Part shown: piece by piece, positions 29,447-50,023 of the stretch
Layout: each line of letters opens with the position of its first letter
How positions within the stretch are numbered: position 1 is the stretch's first letter
Origin: a virus
IMG/VR virus record: IMGVR_UViG_3300034105_003474
Coordinates: 1-64,000 of that record
Length of the DNA: 64,000 nucleotides
Direction: 5' to 3' (one strand)
Program-made: the position numbers and the translations under genes
Notes under the pieces: generated by a model
What the model was told of the DNA's origin: nothing
Databases searched by the model: none
The model's input: the letters and a program-made list of their open reading frames with translations, nothing else

Positions 29447-29698
29447 TTACAGGTAAACATCTATATCCGCCACCGTTTGGTTTGGAAGAGATGGTTGTTG
29501 TTCGTAAACCATGTATTCCCCGTCGTTGTCTATCGCGATGCCTGTGACCCAACTGTTGCGGTGCTCTGATCCTGTCGCGCTGTATGGGTCGTCGCCTATG
29601 AGGATGCGCGTCTTGAATACCGCACCTGACATCGCCTCGTTCTCGTTGGGTGCTTCTATATCTGTTGTCACCATTGTGGTAACGCGGTACTTTGCCAT
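29447..29698 (-). CDS. Hypothetical protein
   Basis: Coupled ORF; C-terminus overlaps the 24-bp repeat. Confidence 0.55.
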   Translation of the reverse strand: MAKYRVTTMVTTDIEAPNENEAMSGAVFKTRILIGDDPYSATGSEHRNSWVTGIAIDNDGEYMVYEQQPSLPNQTVADIDVYL

Positions 29699-30069
29699 TA
29701 CTTGTCCTTCCGTTTGTTCATGTATTCGTCTACTGCGTGGATGCCTGTGTTGATGATGAGTGATAGTGGGAGGAACGCTGATGCTTTCTTCCCGTAGGTT
29801 TCACTGTTTTTCTCTACGGACTCTTGGATAAGTTTTTCTAATAGTTCTCCGTTGAATGCCACATAGATTTGTTTGGTGTCTAGTTCTGTTATCAACGGTT
29901 CTAATACATCTTGTTCGGTGAACGCTGATGGGTGTGCTGTGAGGAATGTGATGTGTGTTCCGTCCTCGTGTTCCATGCGGAGAAGGATGTCGTTGTCACC
30001 GTCGTTCATATCTTCAAATTCAAAGTCCATATAGTTTATTTTTTTCTTTCTGATGGCTGTATACGCCAC
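29698..30069 (-). CDS. Hypothetical protein (start may be 30030)
   Basis: Acidic ORF coupled to next gene. Confidence 0.5.
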   Translation of the reverse strand: MAYTAIRKKKINYMDFEFEDMNDGDNDILLRMEHEDGTHITFLTAHPSAFTEQDVLEPLITELDTKQIYVAFNGELLEKLIQESVEKNSETYGKKASAFLPLSLIINTGIHAVDEYMNKRKDK

Positions 30070-30094
30070 CGTTTGGTTTGGAAAGCCACTTCGT

Positions 30095-32753: not shown

Positions 32754-33117
32754 TTCTTTGCTCCTTGATTTAGTAGGTTTAGTTGCTTGCCCAATCAGTA
32801 TGCCTCATGGGTGTAACACGGTTATTTTTTAGTAGGTGTATTTGTTTTGTTATTCATAAATATATCGGATCAGAAACCATTTGTCAAGTCTTTCGTAAAA
32901 CTTATCCGTATAAATCTAAACGATCTTGCTTTGAGGTTGGGTGAGCATCTGTATCCGCCACCGTTCAGGTTGGTAACAAACAAATGATGCTAAATAACAA
33001 CCGTTGCAAACTAGACAGCCCCGCATCTAACCCTGCACCCGCAACAGTCCCGCGATACACGCGAGAGCGCGGGACTACTGTCTGCGAACACCCGTTTGGT
33101 CTACTAATGTCGGGACT

Positions 33118-33504
33118 ATGAGAACTTCACGAACAGACAGATGGCAATACCGTTTCAATGCGCTTCAGCAATACACGAACAGGGCAGGTAGTTCACTTGT
33201 TCCTGCGACCCACATTGAAGTTTATGAGGGGAAGAATGTTGCTGTTGGTGCTTGGGTTGCGTACAACCGTCAGCAGTACAGAATGGGTACATTGCCTGAC
33301 GCACGCAAGCAAGCGTTAGAGACTCTCGCAGGTTGGCATTGGGAGAAACAGAAACCTGGCAGACGCTATGACATTCGCCGTGACGCAGACATTCTTTCAC
33401 GCCACGCAGGTGGAGAGCGAGTAGGTTTGCTCGCAGAACAATTCAATCTCTCTCGTCAACGAGTTCATCAGATCATCAAGAAGAAGTCAATCCCAAATGT
33501 CTAA
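33118..33504 (+). CDS. Helicase-associated (HA) domain plus C-terminal HTH protein
   Basis: W...F..L..Y...G...VP....G.WV...R..Y..G.L...R...LE...W.W; LAEQFNLSRQRVHQI. Confidence 0.75.
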   Translation: MRTSRTDRWQYRFNALQQYTNRAGSSLVPATHIEVYEGKNVAVGAWVAYNRQQYRMGTLPDARKQALETLAGWHWEKQKPGRRYDIRRDADILSRHAGGERVGLLAEQFNLSRQRVHQIIKKKSIPNV

Positions 33505-33853
33505 CTTTCGTAGCGGAGATAACAACGGTAGAGACGCTTGGAAGAAGATGAGCGAGTGGTCTCACAGTGTCCCTGACGACGAACTCAACGAACTATTCAT
33601 AGACCAAGATGAATGGGACGAGTGGGGAGACGCTGATCTATTGCCACCACTAACACGAGGAAAAAAGATGCAAAAGTTTATTGCAGGTTTATTCGGTCTC
33701 GCAATGATCGGAACAATTTTTTCTGTATCCACATACCAACTTGCAAAAGTGTTTGGTGTAGATAACTTCACTTTCCGAGACGCTGTTGTTGTGACTGTGT
33801 GCTTATCTTTGATTCGTTACACGGACGCAGGAGTGATGAAACAGATCCGATAA
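33497..33853 (+). CDS. Membrane protein
   Basis: Acidic N-terminus, two hydrophobic segments. Confidence 0.55.
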   Translation: MSNFRSGDNNGRDAWKKMSEWSHSVPDDELNELFIDQDEWDEWGDADLLPPLTRGKKMQKFIAGLFGLAMIGTIFSVSTYQLAKVFGVDNFTFRDAVVVTVCLSLIRYTDAGVMKQIR

Positions 33854-33985
33854 ACACAACAGGACGCACCCTTGCGAGTGCGCCCTGAGCGGAGAAACAG
33901 AAAGGTGAAAGGAGAAGTCCTTTCTATCTCTCTAGCGAACAGAATAACATATGAGTTATATGTCAATTCTGAAGCGGGTTGGGAG

Positions 33986-35482
33986 TTACCCCAACCGCTT
34001 TCCGTTTAGTTGTTGATAGGTCTGTTGCCACATTCTTGGATACCAACGCTGTGGTTTTTTACCAACCGATAGTTGCTTCAAGAGTGCAAGTCCGTCTTTC
34101 ACATTGTGTGCCATAAACACTTTGTGCTTCAAGACTTCTTTTATGCAGTCCATTGCAAGAATGTCGTGGTATCCACCGTACGCACCTGCTGTTCCAAGTC
34201 CGTGAACCTGACCGTCAGTAATCCACACGATCGGAGTTGACGAACGCTTACGCTGTTTGATTGCCCAACGAATTGCTTCGCCGTCAACACCGTTCCCACC
34301 ATTTCGTTCAGGAAGTTTGTCAACCATTTTTCCGTCTTTCGCAAGAACGAGAAGGTTTGGTTTGACATTGCTTCGGTCTGCCGAATACACCGCAACCGTG
34401 CAACCAGGACTTGCAACAGTGAGATCAAGAATGTCTTTATTGTTTAGAGACATTGAACCCGAACCGTCAATCAAGACGATACCGCCGTTGCCTTTCTTGT
34501 ATCGGTCAAACACTCGCTTCTCGGGGTCAACTAATGCGTTGCCGATTCTGCGTGGGTTACGACCAATGTTGCTTGCTGTGCGCTTGCGACCGAGACCGCC
34601 GTGTGCTTTGCGTGTAAGTGGAAGAGTACCAACAATAAGTTTTCCCCAAGTCGGTACTGCACCACTGCTTCTGCGTGAAGGTTCAGTCGGTTTTACTTTC
34701 TTTGGGTCTGCTTTCGGTTGCTGTGGTTTATCCGTTGCACCGTTGCCATTCTTGGTATCTTTCTTTGCGTTGCCTTCTTGCTTCGCTTCGTTCTCTTGCT
34801 TCGCTTCGCTTTCACCGTCTTCGTTTTCGTTTTCGTCAACAGGTGGATTTGCCAAACGGTCAATCCATTCTGCGATTCGCTCTGTGTGTGCGAACCCCAT
34901 TGGTGCGAGACCTGTGCGCTCATCTACTTCGGTTGAACCGAGAGTGCCTGTCTTGTGTGCCTTGACAAACTCCTTCTCCACTGCTTTCACAATGTCTCGG
35001 AGTGTTGTTCCCCATGCACGATTTACTCTGCGTACACCTGTGAGGAAGTCTTTGCCACCACCGCAAACCGAATAACCGACTGCTGTGTAAACCGCACTCG
35101 TCCAATCGCCTTGCTCTGCGACACGCATACCTGTAGTGAGTTCGCTTCCGTCTGCCAACAGATCAACATCAAATCCTGCTTTCTTGATAAGAAAGTTCAC
35201 ACGAACTTCCTCAACAACGATCAGTGCGTTCTCTGTTGCGATCTTGCGTTCAATCCACTTCGGGAAGTCGTCTGCGGGTGAGAACCGTGCGTGTGCCATT
35301 TCATGCGCACGAATTACACGATCAACTTGTTCGTCACCAACAGGAACAACCATGTGTTTTGTAACAACATTGGTCATTGGTTTGCCACGAACAGGTGCGC
35401 AAGTATCTACTTGCCATGCGCCCGAGTCTTTATCTTTGCGCCCCAACATTTCGGGGAGTGGTCTAATTTCTGTCTTTTGCAT
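33986..35482 (-). CDS. HEXXH metallopeptidase-like plus VWA-domain protein (MoxR partner)
   Basis: HEMAH...EE.RVN; MIDAS IDGSGSM; ITDG. Confidence 0.75.
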   Translation of the reverse strand: MQKTEIRPLPEMLGRKDKDSGAWQVDTCAPVRGKPMTNVVTKHMVVPVGDEQVDRVIRAHEMAHARFSPADDFPKWIERKIATENALIVVEEVRVNFLIKKAGFDVDLLADGSELTTGMRVAEQGDWTSAVYTAVGYSVCGGGKDFLTGVRRVNRAWGTTLRDIVKAVEKEFVKAHKTGTLGSTEVDERTGLAPMGFAHTERIAEWIDRLANPPVDENENEDGESEAKQENEAKQEGNAKKDTKNGNGATDKPQQPKADPKKVKPTEPSRRSSGAVPTWGKLIVGTLPLTRKAHGGLGRKRTASNIGRNPRRIGNALVDPEKRVFDRYKKGNGGIVLIDGSGSMSLNNKDILDLTVASPGCTVAVYSADRSNVKPNLLVLAKDGKMVDKLPERNGGNGVDGEAIRWAIKQRKRSSTPIVWITDGQVHGLGTAGAYGGYHDILAMDCIKEVLKHKVFMAHNVKDGLALLKQLSVGKKPQRWYPRMWQQTYQQLNGKRLG

Positions 35483-35571
35483 ATTTCCAACTTTCGTTTC
35501 TAGGTTTATGTCTCTTGCTTAGGGAGACTTGCTTACACCCCCACCTTACGGCAGGGGTGTCGCAGGGTTAT

Positions 35572-36315
35572 TTAGACCGCAACCTTGTTGATTGCGATTG
35601 CGTCTAGGACGCTTTCCGCTTGCTTTCCGAACACCATTCGTGCCGAGTCTGCGTCACCAAGTGTCTTGCGTAGGTGGTCAAACGCATAGAAGGTGCGGAG
35701 TGAGATTCTGCGCTCACCTGCGTCTGCCATGCGAACCGCATACTCACGCAAGTCTGCGGACAATGCCAACAGTGCGTCAGGATGTGGTTGGTTGATACGG
35801 ATTGCTACAGGGAAACGATCTTTCAACGCTTCAGGTAGTTCTTCCATTGTCTCAATGTTGGTGGTCATAACAACACTGAACCCGTCTTTTGGTGTGATCG
35901 TCCGACCGTTGTCAGGTGATTCCCACTTTGCTGATTCAGGTGAGTCAGTGAATGCGAGGAGTGTTGCGAACACATCTGCGCCTGCTTTGTCAATCTCGTC
36001 AATTACGAGACGACCGCCACGCAAACCGTCACCCTTCCACGCTGATACTGCTTTGCCGTCTGTCCAAGACCAACCGCCTTCGCCGTTCATCTTGTAGTGA
36101 CCTTCTACTTGCGCATTGGACATGTCCTCTGTGCAGATCAAACGCCACGCACCTGCGGTAATGTCACCGTAGTTGAGACCTGCGAAAGTCTTACCTGTTC
36201 CTGGGGGACCGAATAAGATCAAACGGTCAATGCCTGCGTTGAGTGCGTTCTCAACATCTTTCCAACACTGTGGAAGATCGTTGCGCACCTTTCCTTCTAG
36301 AACTTGCTGTGTCAT
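35572..36315 (-). CDS. MoxR/AAA_5-type AAA+ ATPase
   Basis: GPPGTGKT, VIDEIDKA, TTN, LPEALKDRF. Confidence 0.9.
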   Translation of the reverse strand: MTQQVLEGKVRNDLPQCWKDVENALNAGIDRLILFGPPGTGKTFAGLNYGDITAGAWRLICTEDMSNAQVEGHYKMNGEGGWSWTDGKAVSAWKGDGLRGGRLVIDEIDKAGADVFATLLAFTDSPESAKWESPDNGRTITPKDGFSVVMTTNIETMEELPEALKDRFPVAIRINQPHPDALLALSADLREYAVRMADAGERRISLRTFYAFDHLRKTLGDADSARMVFGKQAESVLDAIAINKVAV

Positions 36316-36444
36316 TTTTCTTTCCTTCTCCGAACTCTGTTCGGTCTAATTGTTTATGTCTATTTGTATTACGCACACACTCGCTGAATGTGTGACTTCC
36401 TTGTACACCCACCACATTACATGGTGGGTGTAACACGGTTTGAG

Positions 36445-36852
36445 TTACGCCACCTGCGCTTCTGCGTTGGTGTTGCTCTCGGTCTTTGCGCCTTTGAGTT
36501 CCGTTACACGGATTTGCTCGTATGCGGTGATCGTGGTTACTGCTTGTGCGACATCTGCCTTGATTACACCAACTTCTACTGCGGACTTGAACTTCTTTCC
36601 GTCCACTGCTGATTTGGTGACAGTCTTGAACACCTTGTCGGAAACAAGATCTTTCAACATTTCAACGCTGTAGGAAGGACGCTCGCCCTTGACTACTGCC
36701 ACTTTGATTCCGTCAACCACTGCGTAGTCAACGCCTTCTTTTGCGAGTTCCAACTTGAAACTTGCTTCTGCCTGTGCGAGTTCTTGCTGTGCGATCTCTA
36801 GTGCTTCACGCTTCGCAAGTACTGCTTTTGCTGTTGAGGTTGTTAGTGCCAT
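36445..36852 (-). CDS. Hypothetical protein
   Basis: Own promoter and RBS. Confidence 0.65.
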   Translation of the reverse strand: MALTTSTAKAVLAKREALEIAQQELAQAEASFKLELAKEGVDYAVVDGIKVAVVKGERPSYSVEMLKDLVSDKVFKTVTKSAVDGKKFKSAVEVGVIKADVAQAVTTITAYEQIRVTELKGAKTESNTNAEAQVA

Positions 36853-36993
36853 TTCTATTTCCTTCTTTCGTTTAGTTGTTTAGGTTTATTTGCTTCTTGC
36901 CACCACTGTATATCAGGGGTGTAACACGGTTATTCGTACTGACTTTCTATCTATGATAGATAGTCTAGTACCTGTTTTTGGACTTGTCAAGTC

Positions 36994-37245
36994 TTATGCG
37001 AGAAACCTCGCAATCCCTGCGTCCGTAAGGTCGTCCCCGATCTGACGCTTTGCGTCTAGGTCGTTCAGGTACTCGCTGACGATCTCGCAGATGTCGTCAC
37101 ATTGGTTCTGAATCGCTTCGTGACGCTCACGCTCGTCTGCGTCCTCTAAAGGGTTCATCACGACCGCATACGACCTGAACGCCTGTGCGAACAACGCTTG
37201 CTCAATGCGTTCTAGTTGTGCTTCTGTGAATGTTGTGATCTTCAT
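36994..37245 (-). CDS. Hypothetical protein
   Basis: Start MKITTF after AAGGAG. Confidence 0.6.
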   Translation of the reverse strand: MKITTFTEAQLERIEQALFAQAFRSYAVVMNPLEDADERERHEAIQNQCDDICEIVSEYLNDLDAKRQIGDDLTDAGIARFLA

Positions 37246-37533
37246 TGCTTGCTCCTTGTTTGTTGGTGTACCTGTAATACGCACAGTGACACGGAATGTG
37301 TGACAATCTTTTTTGGACAGAGTCCAAAATAGGTTGTGGATAATTCGTTGAGGTTTATATACGCCACCGTTCAAGTTGGTAGATGGTTGAAGGATCGCCG
37401 ATCCCCGTGCGCCTGCGCCCGAGAGCCCCGCGCTACAAGCATCTTCTCGGACAGCCCCGCGCCACATCTTTGGTGGCGGGACTACGACGAACTTTTCATC
37501 AAACTTTATACACGCTTGCGCTTTGGTGAGGAG

Positions 37534-37908
37534 ATGCACACTCAGTTTATTCGCTTAGGTTTATACGAGTACTTTGTAACACCCATTTATTATTCTGTAT
37601 TTATGACTTACATATTTGAGGAGTGTGAGGCGCAAGTGCGACTTCACCATAACGGCGAGTGGGTGGGATATGTCTCATATGACATTGACCTCATGGAAAC
37701 CGATTACATCACTATTGGTTGGGTCAAATCATTCATTGAAGGCAAGGGATATGCACGGATACTTATGGAGTGGTTGTACAACCGATACCCCGAACACACG
37801 ATTGATTGGGGAGAATGTTTGCACCCTGCGTCATTGGCGTTAGCAGAGGACTTCTACTCTCGGTACTACGACCGTACGGCATATTTAGAACCTATGGAAA
37901 TATCTTAG
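37534..37908 (+). CDS. GNAT-like acetyltransferase (start may be 37603)
   Basis: VGYVSY...I.WV....EGKGYARILM resembles GNAT motif A. Confidence 0.45.
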   Translation: MHTQFIRLGLYEYFVTPIYYSVFMTYIFEECEAQVRLHHNGEWVGYVSYDIDLMETDYITIGWVKSFIEGKGYARILMEWLYNRYPEHTIDWGECLHPASLALAEDFYSRYYDRTAYLEPMEIS

Positions 37909-37988
37909 AAACATCATCACACTTTATATGACTGTGTGCGTTATATGTGTGTAGGCAACAACGCCTACCAAACAGTTAGGAGACGCAG

Positions 37989-38132
37989 TTGGAAATCAAC
38001 TACGGAGCAATAAAAGAAATGACCCGTGCGTTGAAGCAAGAAATTGCACAAAATGGGATAAACGAAAACAATGCACAATGGGTTCACGAACTCAGAGTTG
38101 CGATTGAACTTCGTGAAAGCGGTGTCTACTAA
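37989..38132 (+). CDS. Small hypothetical protein (47 aa)
   Basis: TTG start after AGGAG; followed by terminator. Confidence 0.5.
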   Translation: MEINYGAIKEMTRALKQEIAQNGINENNAQWVHELRVAIELRESGVY

Positions 38133-38142
38133 CACCGCCAAC

Positions 38143-38179
38143 AAGACCCCAACTCGGAAACGGGTTGGGGTTCTTTTTT
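38143..38179 (+). terminator. Intrinsic terminator
   Basis: accccaactc-ggaaac-gggttggggt stem plus T-run. Confidence 0.7.
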
Positions 38180-38276
38180 GCCATAGCCCCGCGATCTGAT
38201 ACGCGACGCGGGACTGAAGCAAAAGAAAACCCGCAGAAGATGGTTGGTCTCCTGCGGGTTCTTGAAGTTTTGATTT

Positions 38277-38516
38277 TTAGTAGACCCCGAACGATATTCC
38301 GTCTGATGTCATTCCGAACAATGCGCCTGCGTCATTGCCCTCTGTGTCCTGCGAAGGGTAGAGGATTGTTCCGCTAGAGAGGACGAGAACCATAGGGATT
38401 TCCCGTTTCCGCCAACCTTCTTTGTTCATTTCTGCTTTTGTCATTGGACGGATGTCAATGATTGTTGATCCGATCATTGAGTCGTCTACGGTTTCTGCTT
38501 CGTATGTTTTACTCAT
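38277..38516 (-). CDS. Hypothetical protein (IRPMT..E...EGW...S.D.EGN..G family)
   Basis: Start MSKTYE; recurrent phage motif. Confidence 0.65.
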   Translation of the reverse strand: MSKTYEAETVDDSMIGSTIIDIRPMTKAEMNKEGWRKREIPMVLVLSSGTILYPSQDTEGNDAGALFGMTSDGISFGVY

Positions 38517-38718
38517 TGTGTGTCCTTTTTCTTTCGTTGTAGTGATGTAGTGGAGACATACCACGCTCCTCCACCACCGAGTATGTATATGTATGCCGAA
38601 CTAGAGTCTTCTTCTGCGTATCCCCAAAACTCGCAATCACTTTCATTGCGGTATTTGACGATTTCGCCGATCTGATATTGCTTCATCTATGTCCTTTCTG
38701 TGGTGAAGCGTCTCGCTG

Positions 38719-38970
38719 TTATGCGGACGCTATTACGGGTGATACGAGGTTTGCTAGTTCACGCTCTAACTCTGCACCTTCGCAGTTGTTCATGAGGTCA
38801 ATCAAATTATCTAACCATGTCGCAACTTTTGCAGGGAGTGGTGTTGTGTTGAGATAGTTGGTGTACTTGTTGAGTACGACATCTATTTCGTTTGCTAGTC
38901 CTGCTCCTTCAACATTGTTTGTGATGTCAAGGATTTCTATGACTAGGTTTAGGTAACTTTGCTTTGCCAT
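38719..38970 (-). CDS. Hypothetical protein with internal repeat (NNVEGAGL / NNCEGAEL)
   Basis: Own promoter. Confidence 0.6.
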   Translation of the reverse strand: MAKQSYLNLVIEILDITNNVEGAGLANEIDVVLNKYTNYLNTTPLPAKVATWLDNLIDLMNNCEGAELERELANLVSPVIASA

Positions 38971-39164
38971 TTCTAGTGCCTTTCGTTTAGGTTTATACAA
39001 CTACTTTACTGAAGCGGTGTAGCAGGGTTATCCCTGCCACCTAAAGTTGCGACACGCCTTCTTGTCGTTCTTTTTCCGCTTGTCCGCTATGCGCTGTGCC
39101 TTCAGGATGTTCCTATCTGCGAACGCCTGACGCTCCTCGGGTGTCCATGATGTATCTATTTTCA

Positions 39165-39647
39165 TTATGCTCGTCTCCTGTTCTTTGTCCACTCGTGACA
39201 ACTATGTTTTGCTTGCTCATCTACTTGCTCTTGTGACATTCCTGCTGTAATCAACGGACGGTATCCGCATGAGTTACACGCAACGCCGAGGTACTCGGTG
39301 ACACCTTGTGCTATCTGATATGCGTGAACTGTTGTGTTGCCGTGCGTGCGCTCATTTAGATAAACCGTGATGAATACTTCGCAGTTTGCGCAACCGATGA
39401 TTTTGACATCTTTGCCGTCTGTCGGTGCTTGCTTTGTAAAGAAGTCAAACTTGAAGTGTTTGCAGGTTTCGCACTTGTCGTCAAGTTTGCGAACCTTTGC
39501 TACTTCTACTGCACCTTCGGTAACGACCTTCCAATGTGTTGGGAGGATGCCTTTCTTTTGTGCTTGCTCAATGAGGTGGTTGCGAACCGCCCATTGTGCA
39601 TAGGGCTTGGCGACTTTTGTTGCCTTTGCCTTTTTGACCTTTGCCAT
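39165..39647 (-). CDS. Cys-rich Zn-binding hypothetical protein
   Basis: Three CxxC pairs; AAGGAG RBS. Confidence 0.65.
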   Translation of the reverse strand: MAKVKKAKATKVAKPYAQWAVRNHLIEQAQKKGILPTHWKVVTEGAVEVAKVRKLDDKCETCKHFKFDFFTKQAPTDGKDVKIIGCANCEVFITVYLNERTHGNTTVHAYQIAQGVTEYLGVACNSCGYRPLITAGMSQEQVDEQAKHSCHEWTKNRRRA

Positions 39648-39783
39648 TTCTAGTATCTCCTTGTTTAGGTTTATCTAACTCGCTACTTACACTATATACG
39701 CACGGTGTCATATAGTTGTGACATTTATAGACGCTAATAATAAATATACTTCTAATATATCAGGGGGCATAATATCCCCACCT

Positions 39784-39804
39784 TTATCCACAGCCTGTGG
39801 ATAA
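39784..39804. promoter_or_regulatory. Inverted pair of perfect DnaA boxes
   Basis: TTATCCACA-gcc-TGTGGATAA; a third perfect box at 37335..37343. Confidence 0.65.
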
Positions 39805-40266
39805 CTAGATCGGGCAACACCATTTAGCACTAAGTCAAACAATCAGCAGGCTATATACGCCACCGTTCAAGTTGGGTGATGTCTTGATGTCTTGATTGCG
39901 GGGATCGCCAAACCCCACAGCCCCGCGCCCGCGCATCGCGTCGCGGGACTCACAAGTCTCAGATTGTTCGTCGGGACTGTCGCCGTCGCATCCGCCGTTT
40001 GTTGGGATAGTGTTGGGATATGGCTCATCCCTTCAGTCGCAAACACTCCACTAACTTGCAGATCAGCAATGTCATTGACGCACTCGCGCAAACTGAGCCC
40101 GAACTATTTGGCGAGGGCAACGCCGTGCTAATGCCCGTCACACACTCCACAAGGCTCACGCTTGCAGACGATCTGCGTTCACACTATGAGCCACTCACCT
40201 ACCCTCATACGCACAAATAGCCCGCCTACCGAACGGCAGACGGGCTACTGAACGCCTAAGAGTGAT

Positions 40267-40515
40267 CTAGGACTGCACCCAACCCCTTGGGGTATTCATC
40301 GCGTAAAGGTGCGGTATGACGCTCACGATGAGATCAGTGAACGCTTGCGCCACCTCATCGCGCGAGGACGATATACCTTGAATGAAGTCATCGTCAATAC
40401 GCCCATGAATGAGATCATCCACGATCGCACCGATAACACCGATACCTATTGCACCTATGCCGAGATAATTCTCCGCAAGTAATTCACGCACTGATAATTC
40501 CATAATTTTCTCCAT
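40267..40515 (-). CDS. Hypothetical protein
   Basis: ORF followed by hairpin at about 40219-40247. Confidence 0.5.
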   Translation of the reverse strand: MEKIMELSVRELLAENYLGIGAIGIGVIGAIVDDLIHGRIDDDFIQGISSSRDEVAQAFTDLIVSVIPHLYAMNTPRGWVQS

Positions 40516-40605
40516 TGTCTAGTTGCTTGGTAATCGGCTTGCGCCTTGTGCCTAGTTGGAATTGAATCCCACGCCGAACGCGCTAGGCGACTCACCTAGT
40601 GAGTG

Positions 40606-41046
40606 TTATGCACCGTGTGTGCCGTCACCGCCCATCGCGATAAGTGTTGCACGATTCCACGCCTCACGCACCGCATCGTTCGCAATGAGTGCCGTGTTGG
40701 TGGTGAGTAGTTCAATGACTTGCGCCTCAAACTGATCTAACGCCTTCGCGCTGTATCGTGCGATCGGTTGCGATGCAACCATGCCGTGTGGGTAGTTCAC
40801 CGTGTCAAAGATCGTGAACTGCACCGACTCATAACCACGCGAACGATCGTAATGCGCGAACTGAATGAACGCTGTGAATCGCTTGCGATCTGCATCGTGC
40901 GAGATACCGAGTGACACCATCCCACCGACTAGTTCGCCTTCAAACTGAATTGACTGCGAAGGACTGTACCAACGGTAAGAGATCTCGCGATCCTTCACCT
41001 TGCGTATTGCTTGTGCGAAGTTCGCACCTTGAGTCATAACTGACAT
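40606..41046 (-). CDS. Hypothetical protein
   Basis: Start MSVMTQ after GGAG; own promoter. Confidence 0.6.
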   Translation of the reverse strand: MSVMTQGANFAQAIRKVKDREISYRWYSPSQSIQFEGELVGGMVSLGISHDADRKRFTAFIQFAHYDRSRGYESVQFTIFDTVNYPHGMVASQPIARYSAKALDQFEAQVIELLTTNTALIANDAVREAWNRATLIAMGGDGTHGA

Positions 41047-41391
41047 ATCTAACTCCATTCCTAGTAGATAAGCGATATTGCTTATACACACACAATACGC
41101 AAGGGGTGTTGCATAGTGTGACATCGCCCGATCAGGCAGATCAGCCACACCGAGATCAGGATTCACGATCTGCGATCCGACTCACGATCTATATCCGCTA
41201 CCGTTCAAGTTGGGGACTCAGATCCGCGATCCGCCCGTGCGACGCGCCCGCCCGCGCACGGCGACGGAGCCCCGCAAGTATTTGTTTACCCGCATCAGTC
41301 CCGCGTGCATCGTCGCACGGCGGGACTCGCAAGTCGTTGGCGACAAACAGTTGCGTTTGAAACGGTTGCGACACTCGGACTTAGAAACAGC

Positions 41392-41721
41392 AAAAGCCCC
41401 CACCCGACAGAAAGGTGAGGGCTCGTGCCGAACCGAAGTTTACTTACTTGCCTCCAAGAGTGCTTGGAAGTTTGCGAACTCCTGCTCGCATGACAAACAA
41501 TGCCACACGGTGGTTGGGTTGGAGTCCGATGCAACTGCGCTATCTGTGTGCTTGTGTCCTTCAATGCACGGATCGTACATATGCCTAGCCTTTCGTTTAG
41601 AGGGGCTGTATCGCCCCTGTGTACTCATTACGCACGCACCATCGCTGATTGTGCCTGAGACGCACCACAAGCCCCCCTAGGAACGCAAAAAGCCCCCACC
41701 CGAAGGGTGAGGGCTCGTGCC
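41392..41721 (-). terminator. Two near-identical terminator hairpins (41392..41429 and 41687..41721)
   Basis: aaagcccccacccga...ggtgagggctcgtgcc duplicated, each downstream of a minus-strand stop. Confidence 0.7.
41440..41580 (-). CDS. Small Zn-ribbon peptide
   Basis: MYDPC..H.H...WHCLSC; between the duplicated terminators. Confidence 0.45.
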   Translation of the reverse strand: MYDPCIEGHKHTDSAVASDSNPTTVWHCLSCEQEFANFQALLEASK

Positions 41722-41731
41722 TGTGAAGGAA

Positions 41732-42154
41732 CTATGCGGAGAGTGCTGACACCTTCGCGCGAACATTCGCAATGTTCGTGAAGTGCTTCACGCCTTCCGC
41801 GGTGGTGAAACCAACCTTGACCACGCCGTAACCGTCCTCCTCGGGTGCGACCCAAAAGACCACGCCGACCGTGCCTTTAGGAACTTTGCGTCCCTTGAAC
41901 ACCTCAACGGTTTGACCCTTGACGACTTCGCCGTCCGCGACCAACTGTGCGAGACGCTCCGCATTGCGACGGACGATCTCCGCCCACCTTGCGACTGCCT
42001 CCTCCGTGTGACGGTGGGGTTGCTTCCAACGACCAACGCCACCCTCGTACTCGCGACCTGCACGCTCCGCGAGATAACGCACACCATTGCGGTTTACATC
42101 AAAGAAAACCTCTTCTCCGCACCCGCCACACCCGAACCTTTTACCGTTTTCCAT
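41732..42154 (-). CDS. Hypothetical protein (SH3/KOW-like GRKVPKGTVG.VFW C-terminus)
   Basis: AGGAGG RBS; own promoter. Confidence 0.65.
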   Translation of the reverse strand: MENGKRFGCGGCGEEVFFDVNRNGVRYLAERAGREYEGGVGRWKQPHRHTEEAVARWAEIVRRNAERLAQLVADGEVVKGQTVEVFKGRKVPKGTVGVVFWVAPEEDGYGVVKVGFTTAEGVKHFTNIANVRAKVSALSA

Positions 42155-42688
42155 AACTCCTCCTTCAGAGGTCTAGTAGTTGTAATCAGAATACGCACAG
42201 GGTGTGACAGAGTGTGACTTGGATAAACCTAAACGAAGGGACGGCGAAGCCGCTTTCTGACAGCGAAGCAGCGTTGCGGGCGAAGCCGCTCGGCATCGCT
42301 GGCTTTCCTGCTCCGCAGCGATGCATCTCATACACAGCCCCGCAAACCGCGTGGCTACGCGGGACTATGGGCGCATCAGAAGAAGAAAGAAGACAAACCC
42401 GGTTGGGAACGTTGGGACAGGACCCGACGCACATTTTTGTAAAAAAGACAACTTTTTACGCGTTTTAGAAAACACCAATTTTTCACTAATTTTATGGTTT
42501 TTGAAAGCCTTATTCCATAAGGGTTTTACGGAACAGGTTTTCAGGAAACTTCTGAGCCAACACAAAAAACATCAAAAAGAACAACTTTTGAAAGATCCGG
42601 CTGCCAGGTCCCACAATTCCGGGCAGGTCCTGCTTCAGGCTTCTCGGAAGCCCCGCTTAGTTACTTGTGCTGAAGCACAGCGCGGGAC

Positions 42689-42889
42689 TCAGAAGAGGGT
42701 TGGCGCATCATCAAATTGGTTGCGTACCTCAGTACAGATTTTGTGGGCATACCCGAGTGGGGCGGAAGGTTTTTTTGGTGTCCCCAAGTATTTTCCATCT
42801 CGGTATTCAACCCATGAAACGATCTTCACACAGTAGGCGTGGTTCGTTGTGTCTATTTCTTGTTCACAGATGGAGCAGTTGACTTTCAT
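42689..42889 (-). CDS. Small Zn-binding protein
   Basis: CSIC...AH..C. Confidence 0.55.
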   Translation of the reverse strand: MKVNCSICEQEIDTTNHAYCVKIVSWVEYRDGKYLGTPKKPSAPLGYAHKICTEVRNQFDDAPTLF

Positions 42890-43114
42890 TTATGCGGTTG
42901 CTTCTGCCTTTAGTGGTGCAACGATCACGGAGAGTAGATCTTCTACAGGGAACTGTAGATCACTATGCGACCTGATGTCAAGGAGTAGATCAACCATTTC
43001 TGATGATGACACGAGTTCGCGACCCGAGATATGTTTGATCGCATTGTCTATGAGGTCGGTGATAGTGCTAATTTGTTGTGCTGTTTCCAAGAGACTTCTT
43101 CTTTCTAGGTGCAA
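42890..43114 (-). CDS. Hypothetical protein (ISGRELVSSSEMVDLLLD motif)
   Basis: Coupled ORF; start uncertain. Confidence 0.5.
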   Translation of the reverse strand: MHLERRSLLETAQQISTITDLIDNAIKHISGRELVSSSEMVDLLLDIRSHSDLQFPVEDLLSVIVAPLKAEATA

Positions 43115-43268
43115 TAGTTGGTAGATAGTTTATCGCATAATCGTAGGTATGACGCAGACAAACGATGTGGTCGTTGTACACCGAGAGTGCTGTAGAGCAC
43201 CCTTCTAGTGCACAACGACGAACGCCGTTGCCATCTGTTTTGGGTTTGAGGACGGTGTTACTCTCCAA
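43068..43268 (-). CDS. Small Cys/His protein (C...GC.T.LS.YN....C..H)
   Basis: Motif and operon position. Confidence 0.55.
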   Translation of the reverse strand: MESNTVLKPKTDGNGVRRCALEGCSTALSVYNDHIVCLRHTYDYAINYLPTIAPRKKKSLGNSTTN

Positions 43269-43707
43269 GTTTCGCCCACTCTTCGTCGCCGATGAGTTCT
43301 GATGCTTGCAGTATTGCTTCCTCTATATCAAAGTGCACGCAGTTCAACCAACCCGCTTCGCCAACTGTGTCGTCGTCTGCGTACAGATCAAACCATGCGT
43401 TGTTGTCAAACTCAATGCGTTCTTCGTCTATTGCTTTCTGCAACTGCTCATCTGTTTCAATGCCTGCTTCTGCGAGACGGTCGGAGTATCTGATCACCTG
43501 ATAGTTCGCATTGTCAATGCGTGCTTCTTTGCTGTCCCAAACATGGAGACGCATTTCGCCATCGCAGTAAACGCTGATGGTGCGGTCTTTGAAGGTAACC
43601 CGTGCCACGAGTTGGTGTGCATTTGCGTCCCAAACATAGAACGCAGGGTCTTTGCAGAACTCTCGCTCATGCGGTGACTGTTCTCGGGTGATAATTAGGT
43701 CTTGCAT
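43258..43707 (-). CDS. Hypothetical protein
   Basis: AAGGAG RBS; own promoter. Confidence 0.65.
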   Translation of the reverse strand: MQDLIITREQSPHEREFCKDPAFYVWDANAHQLVARVTFKDRTISVYCDGEMRLHVWDSKEARIDNANYQVIRYSDRLAEAGIETDEQLQKAIDEERIEFDNNAWFDLYADDDTVGEAGWLNCVHFDIEEAILQASELIGDEEWAKLGE

Positions 43708-43762
43708 TACTTCTCCTTGTTTCTAGTAGTTGTACCAAGAGTAATACGAGGGTGTTGTGCGG

Positions 43763-43966
43763 TTATGCGTTTCCTAACAGCGCCAATGCTTCGTCTATTT
43801 CTATGGTTGTTTTGATGGAGTGGTCGCCGTCGTATGCAACCGTGACATAGTTTGCGCCAACGGACGGGTTCTCTGCGAGATCGCAAATAGACCCGTACGC
43901 CTGTGCTACCGCATCTAGATGGTTATCTGCCTCGTAGACCATTTGCCAAGTGACTAGGTATTGCAT
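43763..43966 (-). CDS. Hypothetical protein
   Basis: Start MQYLVTW, TGATG coupling. Confidence 0.55.
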   Translation of the reverse strand: MQYLVTWQMVYEADNHLDAVAQAYGSICDLAENPSVGANYVTVAYDGDHSIKTTIEIDEALALLGNA

Positions 43967-44178
43967 CAGACGGACAGACTTTCCTGCCACGAGAACATTG
44001 GGGTAACACCGAACTCGTCTTTTACGGAACGGGTGCTGACTTCAACATCAACCTTGTATTGCTCCAACGATGCGAGGATATCTGCAAGTTCCGCCTTGTC
44101 GGTTGCGATACGGTAACGCAACTCGTGCATACGGGTATTTAGGGTCTCAAATGTTTGCTTTTTGTTACGGAGTTTCAT
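43966..44178 (-). CDS. Hypothetical coiled-coil protein
   Basis: Coupled ORF. Confidence 0.55.
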   Translation of the reverse strand: MKLRNKKQTFETLNTRMHELRYRIATDKAELADILASLEQYKVDVEVSTRSVKDEFGVTPMFSWQESLSV

Positions 44179-44564
44179 TATTTATCTGCCTTTCGGTCTG
44201 CTTGTGGGTCTCTTATCTCATACTGACGACTTTCGCGTTTTACGAAGATGTCAGGACGATCTTGAACGATCTTGCGGACGGTTGCTTCTGATATGTCACC
44301 GATTTCTGCAAGTTCTTTTACAGTTATCAACTCAAAGACATGGTTCTTGCACCAAGACAAAATGTCTTGCTTGCCGTCTTGTGCTGTACGCCAACCTTCA
44401 CTTGGTTGTGCCTGTGCCAAGAGTTCTGCCTTGATGTTGTTTGGTACGAGATCACGGACACGCTTAGGTACTTGCGCAACCCAAACAGGTTTCCCATAGG
44501 TGTTGATCGCTTCAGTAACTTCGCGTATCGCGTCGTCTAGTTGTGTGTCTACTTCGTTACTCAT
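44178..44564 (-). CDS. HTH DNA-binding protein, probably leaderless
   Basis: TVKELAEIGDISEATVRK; ATG 7 nt downstream of -10 TATAGT. Confidence 0.6.
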   Translation of the reverse strand: MSNEVDTQLDDAIREVTEAINTYGKPVWVAQVPKRVRDLVPNNIKAELLAQAQPSEGWRTAQDGKQDILSWCKNHVFELITVKELAEIGDISEATVRKIVQDRPDIFVKRESRQYEIRDPQADRKADK

Positions 44565-44608
44565 AGTGTCTACTATACGCAACGGGTGTGACAAAGTGTG
44601 TGACCCCA

Positions 44609-44866
44609 TTAGAACGGTTCTGCTGTTCGCATGGACTCAGGTACTACAAGTGCGCTTTGTGCTTCGTTCAGTACCGTCATTGTCTGAGAAATGATGTTGC
44701 TGGTTTTTAGTACTGCGCCCTTGAACACCGCTGACTGTTCTTGTGTGCCAACTCGTGATAGTTCTTGTTCAAGAACTTCGTAAATGCTGTGTATCGCTTT
44801 CTCAATGCGACTCAAACTTGCTGAGTCTGCATCAAAGATTTGTGCGAGTGTTTGTGTTCTTTCCAT
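44609..44866 (-). CDS. Hypothetical protein
   Basis: ORF with upstream TTGACT/TATAAT promoter. Confidence 0.55.
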   Translation of the reverse strand: MERTQTLAQIFDADSASLSRIEKAIHSIYEVLEQELSRVGTQEQSAVFKGAVLKTSNIISQTMTVLNEAQSALVVPESMRTAEPF

Positions 44867-45154
44867 AATTTGCTTATCACCCTTTCAGGCTTCTAGGTTT
44901 ATCTAACAATACCATTATATATACACCTCAGTCAAATAGCAACCCCCCAAACAAACAAATGTTCGCCTCAAACTTTTATATCCGCCACCGTTCGGTTTGG
45001 TGTATCCCATGTGTATGCCTGCTTGTTGGGTGGGGCTGTCCCACTTCTGAGCCCCGCTCGGATTTCCCCCCTTTCCTTCACGCGGGGCTGAGAAATACTT
45101 GCAAATGTTTGGGGACTCAGATAAACTAAAAGAAAGTACTAGAAAAGAGGCTAA

Positions 45155-45754
45155 ATGGTTCAGGAAGAACTAAAGGTTTTAGAACAAGTCACTAAACAAT
45201 GGGTTTTGTGGCGCAAAAATAACAATATTCAAAAGAACTCGTGCATCTTGGCATGCAACTTTGCGCACCAACTGTTGGTTCGTTTGGGGGTGGAACACGA
45301 AGTCCTTCCCGTCGGAACCACAGTTTTCAACCGTAAAGGTTGGGAGATGTTTGGAACCGCAGTCAACCAACTACCTGATGATGCGTGGACAGTTCATTGT
45401 TCAAGCCAAACAACAGGTTCAGGTTTTGGCGGACACACCGTAATACATACGGAGAACTACTTTCTAGATTTGACGGCGTTACAGTTTTCCCGTCCTGAGC
45501 ACGAAATCTTCATTGGTGAAACTTTGATAGTCCCGTTGGAAAAGATGGAAGTCTTTGAGCGGGGCTCACAACCACATGCGGTGCATCTCGCATTCCGCAC
45601 CAACAAGTTTTGGACTTTCCCGATTGGTTCAGGTTTGTATTCGTACTACCTAGAGAAGTGGAACACGATCTACCGCAAGTCGCCCGATTGGAACATCTCG
45701 GCAAAAGAGTTAGGTATCCCGAGCATCATTGAGGAAATGCGAAAAGGTAGTTGA
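45155..45754 (+). CDS. Papain/transglutaminase-like fold protein (Cys-His-Asp)
   Basis: NSCIL.C, GH.V, LDLTA.QF. Confidence 0.5.
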   Translation: MVQEELKVLEQVTKQWVLWRKNNNIQKNSCILACNFAHQLLVRLGVEHEVLPVGTTVFNRKGWEMFGTAVNQLPDDAWTVHCSSQTTGSGFGGHTVIHTENYFLDLTALQFSRPEHEIFIGETLIVPLEKMEVFERGSQPHAVHLAFRTNKFWTFPIGSGLYSYYLEKWNTIYRKSPDWNISAKELGIPSIIEEMRKGS

Positions 45755-45779
45755 CATTGCTATATATATTGGATACACT
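45751..45779 (+). promoter_or_regulatory. Sigma70/SigA-type promoter
   Basis: TTGACA-17 nt-TACACT. Confidence 0.7.
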
Positions 45780-45812
45780 TTTATTACCTACTAGAAATAC
45801 AAGGAGCAAGAA

Positions 45813-46145
45813 ATGAACGAGAACAGTTACCGAACAGCAAAGACCGTGCTCATCACGGCGACAGTAACTATTGCGTCAGTGTTCGCATTTAGTTTCCTGA
45901 AAGAACAGAACCGACAAGACAACGAGTTCTTTTGCAACGGTGCATCAGTCAACATCAAAGAGGGCGACACCCTGTATTGGATTGCACGCACAAACTGTGA
46001 AGGCAACACCATGAATGTTGTGGACGAACTTGTACGAGTTTATGGAACTGAATTGACGGTTGGTGACACGATCTTCCTACCTACGCACCCGAACTGTGAA
46101 CTACGCATGACGGACGGCGGTCAAGTAATGGAAGATTGCAAGTAA
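45813..46145 (+). CDS. Membrane-anchored LysM-like protein
   Basis: N-terminal TM; IKEGDTLYWIA...L.VG..I.LP. Confidence 0.65.
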   Translation: MNENSYRTAKTVLITATVTIASVFAFSFLKEQNRQDNEFFCNGASVNIKEGDTLYWIARTNCEGNTMNVVDELVRVYGTELTVGDTIFLPTHPNCELRMTDGGQVMEDCK

Positions 46146-46184
46146 TAAACAAAAATATATAACTACTAGACAAGGAGAAAAGTA

Positions 46185-46592
46185 ATGAAAGCAATTTGGA
46201 ACTGGTATAGAAACAGGAGCAGATTTGTAAAGTTGGTAATCATCGTCACTGTTCTTACGATTATCGGAACAGTGATGGACGCAACAGACGGAAAAACTTC
46301 TTACGAAAGTATGAAGCAAGGAGATTGTTACTCTGACACATTCTCTTCTGCAAATAATTTACTTATTTCGGATTTTTCCAAAGTGGATTGTTCGCAGTCA
46401 CACTTAGGAAGAATTGTGTATGTTGAGAGTTTTGAGGGTAGAGAGTTTCCAATTTCGTGGGAACAGTATGCGGAAGACAACTGTCCAGCAATTTCCACAC
46501 ACTTCTACCACTCGGTAGATAAAGCAGTTATGTATGAAGACATATTTATATGCGTAGTAGAGGGCGCAACAGATGGTGGTAGCGATGTCTAA
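46185..46592 (+). CDS. Membrane-anchored Septum_form-like protein
   Basis: TM; GDC...VDC...H, A...C, .C pattern. Confidence 0.55.
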   Translation: MKAIWNWYRNRSRFVKLVIIVTVLTIIGTVMDATDGKTSYESMKQGDCYSDTFSSANNLLISDFSKVDCSQSHLGRIVYVESFEGREFPISWEQYAEDNCPAISTHFYHSVDKAVMYEDIFICVVEGATDGGSDV

Positions 46593-46776
46593 GTACATCA
46601 TTTCACTTGGTTCTGCGAGCGCACTAATTGGTGCGTGGTTTTGGCAGAAAGAGAACGCCTACGCCTCTCTCACGAGTAACGAACTCGCCTCTATCCTTCA
46701 GTGGGTAGGAGTAAGTCAAGTGTTAGTCGGAGTTGCCGTAGCACTAATCGGCTTAGAGATGAGGGGAAAGAAGTGA
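46585..46776 (+). CDS. Small two-TM membrane protein
   Basis: Two hydrophobic helices. Confidence 0.5.
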   Translation: MSKYIISLGSASALIGAWFWQKENAYASLTSNELASILQWVGVSQVLVGVAVALIGLEMRGKK

Positions 46777-47227
46777 ACATAGGCAAACTAGATAACCCAT
46801 ACACAACGGAGTGCCTTGACTGTGGGATAAACCTGTGGTCTCAATACCTGCACTATCTAGGTATGGACAACGACACCGCACAATGCGCAAACTGTCTAAC
46901 AGCAAACCCTACTAAATACGAAAGATGGAGCGACATAGTATGAGCGAACAGAACGGACAACTACCAACCTTTGGCGAATGGTGCGATCTGCATTCATTCA
47001 ACCCTGACAATGACGACAACTTCAATCTTTACCTGAATTGGTTACAGAGAGAAACGAGCAAACAATGAGCGACACCGAACAAGAAATCGTTGAAGTAACC
47101 CTTGACGCATTGGACGAAACCGTGAACGAACTAGAGCGTCTCATGGCGTTACTAGCAGAGCGTCTAGGCGCAACACCCGTCACCCACTACCAAGACAAGT
47201 GACCCTAGATAGGGCTAAACTTACCTA

Positions 47228-49171: not shown

Positions 49172-49199
49172 CTTAAGGAGTTAACTCAATGTTTGCAGT

Positions 49200-49850: not shown

Positions 49851-49955
49851 AGGCTTATTAGCCCCGCTCCCAACAACCTCCGCCACTTCTGCTGGCACTA
49901 AATTTCGCACTAAATTTGGTGCGATGTTGCTGTCAAATATTTCTTTTGAAATGGG

Positions 49956-49984: not shown

Positions 49985-50023
49985 AATCTGCATAAACTAA
50001 ACAGGAACCGAGGAGGTTACCGA

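What the first reader, a model, noticed from the sequence alone, without database searches (positions are those of the whole stretch)
32950..45117. Repeated composite DNA element: oriented 24-mer plus helically phased AGYCCCGC half-sites
Seen: at 32950, 37356, 39852, 41190 and 44977 the 24-mer TRTATMCGCCACCGTTCRRKTTGG is followed by AGCCCCGC 44, 45, 44, 55 and 50 bp after its end. Inverted pairs AGYCCCGC-N15-GCGGGACT have a start-to-start spacing of 23 bp (33046, 37453, 38185, 41297, 42336; 24 bp at 39919). Other pairs are at 32-33 bp, about one helical turn more (42649, 45050, and variants at 47706, 48148). A direct copy lies exactly 29 bp upstream in three cases (33017, 37424, 41268). Spacer sequence varies while spacer length holds, and the C/A mismatch in the pair is tolerated. 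Inference: a protein-bound architecture rather than an RNA hairpin. At least three copies sit at divergent junctions just upstream of plus-strand genes. Possible roles are an enhancer/operator complex, a centromere-like or DNA-entry scaffold, or cassette-exchange sites. I do not recognise it as a described element.
Basis: partly seen in the sequence, partly recalled or inferred. Interest (0 to 1): 0.85.

Follow-up and report, generated by a model that had tools for sequence, protein, structure and literature searches.

The report
Oriented box plus octamer arrays
An uncultured 145-kb lake phage marks the gaps between its early gene units with two kinds of conserved DNA sites, a one-way 24-base box and paired 8-base sites at fixed spacings, which most likely bind regulatory proteins; similar repeat systems are known in other phages, so this is a new variant, not a new principle.

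Summary
The 24-mer has 10 copies in the whole 144,873-bp genome, not 5. All lie on the + strand between 28182 and 45000, where none is expected by chance. The octamer AGYCCCGC has 36 copies against 1.8 expected, all between 27 and 58 kb. Relatives keep both motifs, including phages whose neighbouring regulator gene is only 52-58% identical. They keep the inverted-pair spacing (22-24 or 30-33 bp, never between), the direct copy 27-29 bp upstream, and a strictly convergent order.

- The distance from 24-mer to octamer is not fixed (40-68 bp).
- Only a 10-base core of the 24-mer is deeply conserved.
- The neighbouring genes run mostly leftward and have their own promoters.
- Five 24-mers sit at junctions of small leftward genes without octamers.

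Best reading (about 0.5): double-stranded DNA sites for two sequence-specific proteins, which regulate or insulate early transcription units. Hairpin RNA is unlikely, because loop lengths are quantised, lone octamers are conserved even inside genes, and the arms never extend beyond 8 bp.

The elements also bound swapped gene cassettes. The closest analogues are SAS/ESAS repeats, stoperators and T4 PeSLs. The binding proteins and the function are untested. The same stretch was noted several times in this scan.

The parts
28182..28205 (+). 24-mer copy (class I, 5 mismatches to consensus), inside the N-terminal coding part of minus gene 27805-28221
28470..28493 (+). 24-mer copy at the edge of the 500-bp non-coding hub; an AGTCCCG site follows 33 nt later
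28527..28840 (.). Non-coding hub. Three forward octamer-like sites (28527, 28564, 28613) are followed by four reverse ones (28676, 28710, 28747, 28793), roughly symmetric about 28645. A long hairpin at about 28770-28845 shows compensatory changes in relatives.
28908..28931 (+). 24-mer copy (class I), 32 nt beyond the stop of minus gene 28964-29296
29462..29485 (+). 24-mer copy (class I) at a gene junction. It overlaps the 3' end of minus gene 29447-29698 and lies 1 nt before the ATG of minus ORF 29293-29460. It is read in different frames in relatives.
30058..30081 (+). 24-mer copy (class I), 13 nt beyond the stop of minus gene 30095-30697 and 27 nt before the next minus start codon
32950..32973 (+). 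24-mer A (class II), 62 bp beyond the -35 of the leftward promoter at 32887-32859
33017..33076 (.). Octamer array A: F 33017, F 33046, R 33069 (spacings 29 and 23)
33118..33504 (+). HA + HTH (Mor/resolvase-HTH-like) protein, a candidate binder. Its start is leaderless-type, with the -10 TAATGT 7 nt before the ATG; this layout is conserved in distant relatives.
37356..37379 (+). 24-mer B (class II); a TGTGGATAA box lies 12 bp upstream
37424..37483 (.). Octamer array B: F 37424, F 37453, R 37476. Homology with five relatives breaks exactly at 37483.
38185..38215 (.). Lone inverted pair between convergent intrinsic terminators (38145-38172 on + and 38262-38226 on -)
39852..39875 (+). 24-mer C (class II)
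39919..39979 (.). Octamer array C: F 39919, R 39943 (24 bp), and a further CGGGACT at 39973
41190..41213 (+). 24-mer D (class II, 1 mismatch) inside a GATC-rich stretch
41268..41327 (.). Octamer array D: F 41268, F 41297, R 41320; left border of a swapped gene cassette
42336..42366 (.). Inverted pair (23 bp); right border of the cassette that holds gene 41732-42154
42649..42689 (.). Inverted pair of the long class (33 bp)
44977..45000 (+). 24-mer E (class II) at the main divergent junction, 34 bp beyond the -35 of the leftward promoter at 44942-44914
45050..45089 (.). Inverted pair of the long class (32 bp), ending 10 bp before the -35 of the rightward promoter at 45099-45127
45559..56996 (.). 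Scattered single or loosely paired octamers. Several lie inside the SNF2 gene (47383, 47738, 48148, 48801, 49080). Four lie 8-10 nt after stop codons in sense orientation (49860, 52370, 55121, 56989). They are conserved in relatives beyond their flanks.

Best explanation
The 24-mer and the octamers are two separate classes of double-stranded DNA binding site for sequence-specific proteins, most likely phage-encoded regulators made from this same early region. They organise transcription of the early gene block.

The box is asymmetric and always points one way relative to the leftward genes. It has a 10-base invariant core with a T-rich flank. It would be read by a monomer or a two-domain protein. 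It sits either at junctions between small leftward genes or 23-62 bp upstream of the strong leftward promoters.

The octamers would be read by a protein that pairs head-to-head across 23 or about 33 bp, one helical turn apart, and adds further copies 27-29 bp away. This builds convergent arrays in the spacers between transcription units and next to the promoters of the few rightward genes.

Together the two site classes would act as operators or insulators that time or shut off early units. They would work like stoperators or global phage repressor sites.

Shown: the motifs, their polarity, their quantised spacing, their placement and their deep conservation. Inferred: that proteins bind them, which proteins these are (candidates: HA-HTH 33118-33504, HTH protein 44178-44609, RHH 54637-55113, ParB-like 60216-60989), and the regulatory outcome.
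For: - Motif counts are far above chance and confined to 27-58 kb.
- Conservation holds in 38 related viral loci and in distant relatives, with full turnover of the intervening sequence.
- F->R spacing is 22-24 or 30-33 bp with none between, F->F is 27-29 bp, and divergent pairs are almost absent.
- Spacers add little folding energy over shuffles, and the flanks of the arms are not complementary.
- Lone octamers are conserved inside the SNF2 coding sequence.
- Pair 38185 lies between convergent terminators.
- Class II boxes lie upstream of near-consensus leftward promoters, so they are outside those transcripts.
- Neither strand of the box carries a usable -10/-35 (direct reading of the sequences).
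- No sigma region 2, T7-type RNA polymerase or NusG gene is present.
- The box is read in different frames where it overlaps genes.
- Small DNA-binding proteins are encoded beside the sites.
Against: - No binding data exist and no cognate protein has been identified.
- Motif and protein do not co-vary within the sampled lineage, so no pairing could be inferred (one search gave no useful distant homologues).
- Class II boxes sit at variable distances from promoters, which is unusual for a classical activator or repressor.
- Some stems next to octamers show compensatory changes (hub hairpin), so some hairpin formation is selected.
- A 23-bp centre-to-centre spacing is about 2.2 helical turns, not an integer.
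- Sites inside genes are unusual for ordinary operators.
Confidence: 0.5

Rival explanations
1. The 24-mer is a phage-specific promoter read by host RNA polymerase with an unrecognised phage factor, and the octamer hairpins are leader or terminator structures in its transcripts. It could fire rightward, expressing the few + genes and antisense RNAs against the small leftward genes. Or it could fire leftward, as one promoter per cassette in the manner of T4 PeSLs.
For: - There is one box per leftward unit and one per small gene.
- Real + genes start 145-158 nt after four class II boxes.
- In near relatives a G-rich stretch follows the box.
- By prior, conserved oriented 20-30-mers in phage early regions are usually promoters (general knowledge).
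Against: - Neither strand has a -10 with the invariant A and T, or a -35 at usable spacing.
- No phage sigma or RNA polymerase was found.
- The + genes and the leftward genes each have their own recognisable promoters.
- Rightward firing would be antisense to nearly all neighbours.
- Leftward firing would start after the start codon in several copies.
- The putative initiation region is not conserved in distant relatives.
Confidence: 0.15
2. The sites belong to replication or segregation. The octamer arrays would be iteron-like or centromere-like sites for an initiator, ParB-like or RHH protein, and the polar box would be a replication-direction signal.
For: - The octamers reach into the replication gene block and into the SNF2 gene.
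- ParB_N and RHH proteins are encoded nearby.
- DnaA-box-like palindromes and a GATC cluster lie beside boxes B, C and D.
- The hub at 28.5-28.9 kb has a symmetric array.
- The cumulative GC skew reaches its minimum at 42-46 kb.
Against: - More than ten arrays are spread over 30 kb, unlike a single origin or centromere.
- The half-sites are split by 15 or 24 bp, unlike the contiguous palindromes of parS.
- The phage shows no integrase or plasmid-prophage features.
- The placement tracks transcription-unit borders closely.
Confidence: 0.12
3. The primary role is recombination. The conserved elements would be exchange points that shuffle promoter-gene cassettes between related phages, by short-homology recombination as at T4 PeSLs or by an unknown site-specific enzyme.
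For: - BLAST homology blocks begin or end at 32952, 37379, 37483, 41260, 42333, 42649 and 45081.
- Alternative cassettes, each bounded by inverted pairs, occupy one position in different relatives: a 140-aa gene or a gene of about 165 aa, with an extra + gene in two relatives.
- This genome has a GNAT gene where relatives have a minus-strand gene, directly after array B.
Against: - No resolvase or tyrosine recombinase was found.
- Eight-base arms are too short for efficient homologous exchange.
- Conserved islands in fast-diverging spacers will create such block ends without any exchange role.
- Quantised spacing and in-gene copies are not explained.
Confidence: 0.1
4. The elements act in RNA. 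The octamer pairs would be hairpins (processing, stability or U-less terminators) and the box a linear RNA signal at cistron junctions, perhaps for the phage RNase E-like protein.
For: - On the minus strand the common C/A arm combination becomes a G-U pair.
- In two site families the pair follows a minus-strand terminator within 0-6 nt.
- Class I boxes lie at cistron junctions in sense orientation.
- A protein matching a PHROG labelled RNase E is encoded at 64502-65149.
- The hub hairpin shows compensatory changes.
Against: - The loops would be 15-16 or 24-25 nt with nothing between.
- Lone octamers occur in both orientations relative to genes.
- Class II boxes and several arrays lie outside predicted transcripts.
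- Only 13 of 54 hairpins have an adjacent terminator.
- There are no Rfam matches.
- The same arm sequence recurs in all paralogues instead of co-varying.
Confidence: 0.08

Closest known systems
SAS / ESAS repeats of Cluster K mycobacteriophages (Pope et al. 2011, PMC3203893; PMC12699233)
   Same: An asymmetric repeat is restricted to the non-structural half of the genome, with nearly all copies in one orientation. About half of the copies are accompanied by an imperfect inverted repeat with a variable spacer. The repeats are conserved across subclusters next to unrelated genes. Their function is still untested.
   Different: - SAS is a 13-mer that contains a Shine-Dalgarno-like core 3-8 bp before start codons. 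Here the box has no fixed relation to start codons.
- ESAS arms are 17 bp with mostly 4-13 bp spacers, directly next to the SAS. Here the arms are 8 bp, the spacers are 15/16 or 24/25 bp, and the pair lies 40-68 bp from the box.
- There is no sequence similarity.
Operators and stoperators of Cluster A mycobacteriophages (L5 gp71; PMC9283540)
   Same: Many copies of an asymmetric site lie in promoter regions and in short intergenic spaces near stop codons, with polarity tied to the direction of transcription. A two-domain monomer is a plausible reader.
   Different: - Stoperators are 13-mers spread over both genome arms of temperate phages and are bound by the immunity repressor.
- Here there are 10 copies, in the leftward early block only.
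- The phage has no integrase.
- No homologue of the repressor was sought or found.
- Class II copies lie upstream of promoters and do not overlap them.
PeSL promoter-terminator cassettes of T4-like phages (PMC2839356, PMC4122927)
   Same: Composite conserved elements (an oriented box plus a stem-loop) sit between small early genes in variable regions and coincide with indels and gene replacements between relatives.
   Different: PeSLs are a recognisable sigma-70 early promoter plus a terminator stem-loop. Here the box has no promoter hexamers, the pairs lack a U-tract and have long, fixed-length spacers, and separate promoters and terminators are present.
Dispersed operators of global regulators on plasmids and phages, such as KorB OB sites of RK2 and C1 operators of P1 (from memory, not checked here)
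   Same: One regulator is served by a dozen or more sites scattered at promoters, at a distance from promoters and inside genes.
   Different: Those sites are contiguous palindromes (KorB) or single 17-mers (C1). No quantised split half-sites or convergent arrays are described for them, as far as I know.

Membership tests
Stoperator/operator system (Cluster A mycobacteriophages) | Asymmetric short site in many copies, in promoter regions and short intergenic spaces | tested here: met
   There are 10 asymmetric copies. Five lie at gene junctions and five near promoters.
Stoperator/operator system (Cluster A mycobacteriophages) | Orientation correlated with the direction of transcription over the whole genome | tested here: inconclusive
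   All copies share one polarity relative to the leftward block. None occurs in rightward or late genes, so the correlation cannot be tested in both directions.
Stoperator/operator system (Cluster A mycobacteriophages) | Bound by a monomeric immunity repressor that blocks elongation | not testable with these tools
No integrase was found, so an immunity repressor is not expected.
SAS/ESAS (Cluster K) | 13-bp GGGATAGGAGCCC-type site 3-8 bp upstream of start codons | tested here: not met
   The sequence is different. The distance to start codons runs from inside the gene to more than 200 nt upstream.
SAS/ESAS (Cluster K) | About half of the sites carry an adjacent imperfect inverted repeat with a variable spacer | tested here: inconclusive
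   Five (perhaps six) of 10 boxes are followed by inverted pairs. The pairs lie 40-68 bp away and their spacer length is quantised, not freely variable.
PeSL (T4-like phages) | Contains a sigma-70 early promoter | tested here: not met
   Neither strand of the box has -10/-35 hexamers. Separate promoters are present.
PeSL (T4-like phages) | Flanks indels and replacements in variable regions | tested here: met
Intrinsic terminator | G+C-rich stem, short loop, U-tract | tested here: not met
   The loops are 15-25 nt and no T-run follows on either strand. True terminators are present elsewhere in the region.
Site-specific recombination site (res/hix/att type) | A cognate serine or tyrosine recombinase is encoded | tested here: not met
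   PF00239 and PF00589 are absent from a genome that CheckV rates as complete. The HA-HTH protein resembles only the small HTH of resolvases, and weakly.
Known RNA family (Rfam) | Match to a curated covariance model | tested here: not met
   No match with E up to 1 in 26-60 kb.

The most novel reading that the evidence does not exclude
A lytic phage uses a protein-dependent, polar insulator system. One protein on the oriented box and a second on the quantised octamer arrays would wall off each early gene cassette. They would switch the cassettes off in a programmed order by blocking elongating or initiating polymerase. The same conserved walls would serve as joints at which cassettes are exchanged between phages. 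This would be a stoperator-like mechanism outside lysogeny, combined with a PeSL-like evolutionary role.
Probability: 0.2. Interest if true: 0.7.

Novelty: new variant of a known kind. Interest (0 to 1): 0.45.

Why it matters
Repeat systems of this kind (SAS/ESAS, stoperators, PeSLs) are among the few handles on how large phages with many unknown early genes time their expression and swap genes, and most remain untested. It is conserved across a diverse lineage of uncultured freshwater phages. That makes it a tractable target for DAP-seq or EMSA with four or five small candidate proteins, and a marker for delimiting early cassettes in metagenomic phage genomes. It is not a new principle of regulation unless the insulator reading is shown.

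Tried and rejected
- Sigma-70, ECF or sigma-54 promoter readings of the box on either strand: the hexamers or spacings do not fit (inspection).
- A phage RNA polymerase, sigma or NusG-like factor that could read a private promoter or an ops-like signal: none found. Only weak region-4-like HTHs were found.
- The box as a Shine-Dalgarno or translational signal: it has a variable position and sometimes lies after the start codon.
- The box as a coding motif: it is read in different frames.
- 'CGGGACT directly before ATG' as a start-associated octamer: in distant relatives the -10 is kept and the octamer-like stretch is not, so this is a promoter discriminator of a leaderless gene.
- A general terminator-hairpin tandem: present in only 13 of 54 cases.
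- Strand assignment from G-U against C-A: inconsistent between sites.
- Rfam and tRNA scans: nothing found.
- Near-identical phages in GenBank: none found.
- The box in 185,579 prokaryote genomes: none found.
- Distant HA-HTH homologues for a protein-site covariation test: the search was swamped by long multi-HA-repeat proteins.
- Structure search with the HA-HTH model: only weak HTH-class hits.

Full report
**Setting**

The window is the first 64 kb of a single 144,873-bp viral contig with 45.8% G+C, rated complete by CheckV. It is a myovirus. Tail fibre genes lie at 0-6 kb. Portal, protease, capsid, sheath, baseplate and large terminase genes lie beyond 69 kb. No close relative is in GenBank phages.

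A crude gene call, checked by codon-position substitution patterns against relatives, shows that 27.4-44.9 kb is a block of mostly leftward (minus-strand) small genes with a few rightward islands. From 45 to 68 kb the genes are mostly rightward and serve replication: SNF2 helicase, DUF932, SSB, an RHH protein, a ParB_N protein and primase-helicase.

**The observation**

The box has 10 copies in the whole genome, all on the + strand and all between 28182 and 45000. The octamer has 36 copies against 1.8 expected, and all extended forms lie within 27-58 kb. Dinucleotide shuffles give no inverted pair, against 8 observed. Random re-placement of the 36 octamers never reaches the 8 pairs seen at 22-24 or 31-33 bp.

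**Conservation**

A pattern scan of IMG/VR returned 38 loci from related freshwater-type viral contigs, holding 57 further distinct copies of the box. These relatives are syntenic at 67-90% nucleotide identity.

Homologues of the adjacent HA-HTH protein at 52-58% identity led to more distant relatives. These keep the gene order and the architecture. Of the box they retain only the 10-base core with a T-rich 5' flank. They keep the octamers with the same 15/16-base spacers and the direct copy 29 bp upstream, although all intervening sequence is different.

Over all unique contexts:
- forward-to-reverse spacing is 22-24 bp (45 cases) or 30-33 bp (21 cases), with none at 25-29 bp
- forward-to-forward spacing is 27-29 bp (20 cases)
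- a reverse site followed by a forward site within 70 bp occurs once

The arrays are therefore always convergent.

Two details need correction. The box-to-octamer distance is 40-68 bp and varies even between orthologous sites. The C/A arm combination (30 of 37 in close relatives) gives way to perfect arms in distant ones.

**Placement**

The boxes fall into two classes.
- Class I (28182-30081) lies at junctions of the small leftward genes. These copies overlap gene ends or starts in different reading frames in different phages, so they are nucleotide-level elements.
- Class II (32950, 37356, 39852, 41190, 44977) is followed by octamer arrays.

The leftward genes have their own promoters.
- Near-consensus sigma-70/sigma-A promoters lie 23-62 bp beyond the class II box. 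They are at 32887-32859 and 44942-44914 here, and take the form TTGACW-17-TATTAT or TAGTGT in distant relatives.
- A second class, GTGTTACAC-N8-TANNNT, has six copies, all on the minus strand.

Classical intrinsic terminators close the leftward units.

The rightward genes after the arrays are real but also have their own promoters downstream of the octamers. The HA-HTH gene has a -10 seven bases before its ATG, and this is conserved in distant relatives while the octamer-like stretch there is not. ORF 40020 is similar. The 45155 gene has TTGCAA-17-TAAACT and a ribosome-binding site.

The composite therefore sits in the untranscribed or weakly transcribed spacers between units. At A and E it lies between divergent promoters. 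The pair at 38185 lies between convergent terminators.

Further octamers lie inside the SNF2 gene, and in four cases 8-10 nt after stop codons. They are conserved beyond their flanks.

**RNA or DNA**

Against hairpin RNA:
- The loops would be 15-16 or 24-25 nt and nothing else.
- The spacers add little stability over shuffles.
- The arms end sharply at 8 bp.
- All paralogues share one arm sequence and do not co-vary.
- Lone octamers occur in both orientations.
- Rfam finds nothing.
- Only 13 of 54 unique pairs have a terminator next to them.

For some structure: the long hairpin in the 28.5-28.9 kb hub shows compensatory changes.

I conclude that the octamer is recognised by sequence, most simply on duplex DNA, with partners that must lie on compatible faces of the helix.

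**Is the box a promoter?**

Neither strand carries a -10 with the invariant positions or a -35 at usable spacing. No sigma region 2, T7-type polymerase or NusG paralogue is encoded. The flank where initiation would occur is not conserved in distant relatives. Other promoters account for the genes. I keep the promoter reading as a rival at 0.15, because oriented conserved boxes in phage early regions usually turn out to be promoters.

**Candidate binders**

The HA-HTH protein is encoded directly after array A and is conserved with it. It has weak Mor, resolvase-HTH and sigma-region-4 matches. Its confident two-domain helical model (pLDDT 86.6) has only weak structural neighbours, all of them DNA-binding HTH proteins, several of them bipartite. 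Other candidates are listed under the next steps. None is tested.

**Cassettes**

Homology blocks with relatives start or stop at the elements. Between array D and the pair at 42336, different relatives carry different genes, each bounded by inverted pairs. One alternative brings its own box. After array B this genome has a rightward GNAT gene where relatives have a leftward gene and terminator. No resolvase or integrase is encoded. I read this as a PeSL-like evolutionary by-product and not the primary function, but it is not excluded.

**Comparison with known systems**

- The nearest published architecture is SAS/ESAS of Cluster K mycobacteriophages (PMC3203893). Its function is still unverified (PMC12699233).
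- In placement and polarity the box resembles stoperators (PMC9283540).
- In evolutionary behaviour the composite resembles PeSLs (PMC2839356, PMC4122927).

The defining features of each were tested where possible, and at least one fails for each. I therefore file the finding as a new variant of a known kind and not as a member of any of them.

**Verdict**

The protein-site reading is favoured at about 0.5, and the function is unproven. Interest is moderate.

Noticed in passing
window 28450-28960: A conserved 500-bp non-coding hub. Three forward octamer-like sites are followed by four reverse ones, roughly symmetric about 28645. A long hairpin at about 28770-28845 has stems that show compensatory changes in relatives.
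   Followed up: partly
window 39784-39804 and 37335-37343: DnaA-box-like TTATCCACA sequences: an inverted pair at 39784-39804 and a single box 12 bp before 24-mer B. They are conserved next to the box in relatives.
   Followed up: partly
window 41100-41235: A GATC cluster: 23 GATC in 40-42 kb against about 6 per 2 kb elsewhere. GGATC-N3-GATCC mini-palindromes lie between several boxes and their octamers. The same 2 kb is 54% G+C.
   Followed up: partly
window 32147, 36432, 36923, 39021, 42206, 44590 (minus strand): A promoter-like class GTGTTACAC-N8-TANNNT has six copies, all leftward. The layout recalls the actinobacterial RecA-independent damage promoter; that comparison is from memory and was not checked.
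   Followed up: partly
window 33098-33120; L047, L049, L051 equivalents: The HA-HTH gene appears to be leaderless. A TANNNT hexamer lies 7 nt before the ATG in all relatives and there is no ribosome-binding site. This fits a host in which leaderless mRNAs are common.
   Followed up: partly
window 30600-32753 and 50024-61000: The early block carries genes typical of plasmid leading regions and anti-restriction islands: DUF1281/Api92-like, DUF2958, DUF932, DUF3846, SSB and ParB_N.
   Followed up: no
window 37537-37908: A rightward GNAT acetyltransferase-like gene is present only in this genome. Relatives have an unrelated leftward gene and terminator at the same place.
   Followed up: partly
window 42222-42240 (minus), 28206-28225 and upstream of boxes in relatives: A further repeat of the type CGTTTAGGTTTAT occurs in both orientations, next to boxes and next to a cassette promoter.
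   Followed up: no
window 49860, 52370, 55121, 56989: AGCCCCGC lies 8-10 nt after the stop codon of a gene, in sense orientation, four times. Two of these are conserved in the one relative that covers them.
   Followed up: partly
G000 64502-65149 (L039:502-1149): A 215-aa protein matches a PHROG labelled RNase E and has a weak sigma-region-4-like HTH.
   Followed up: no
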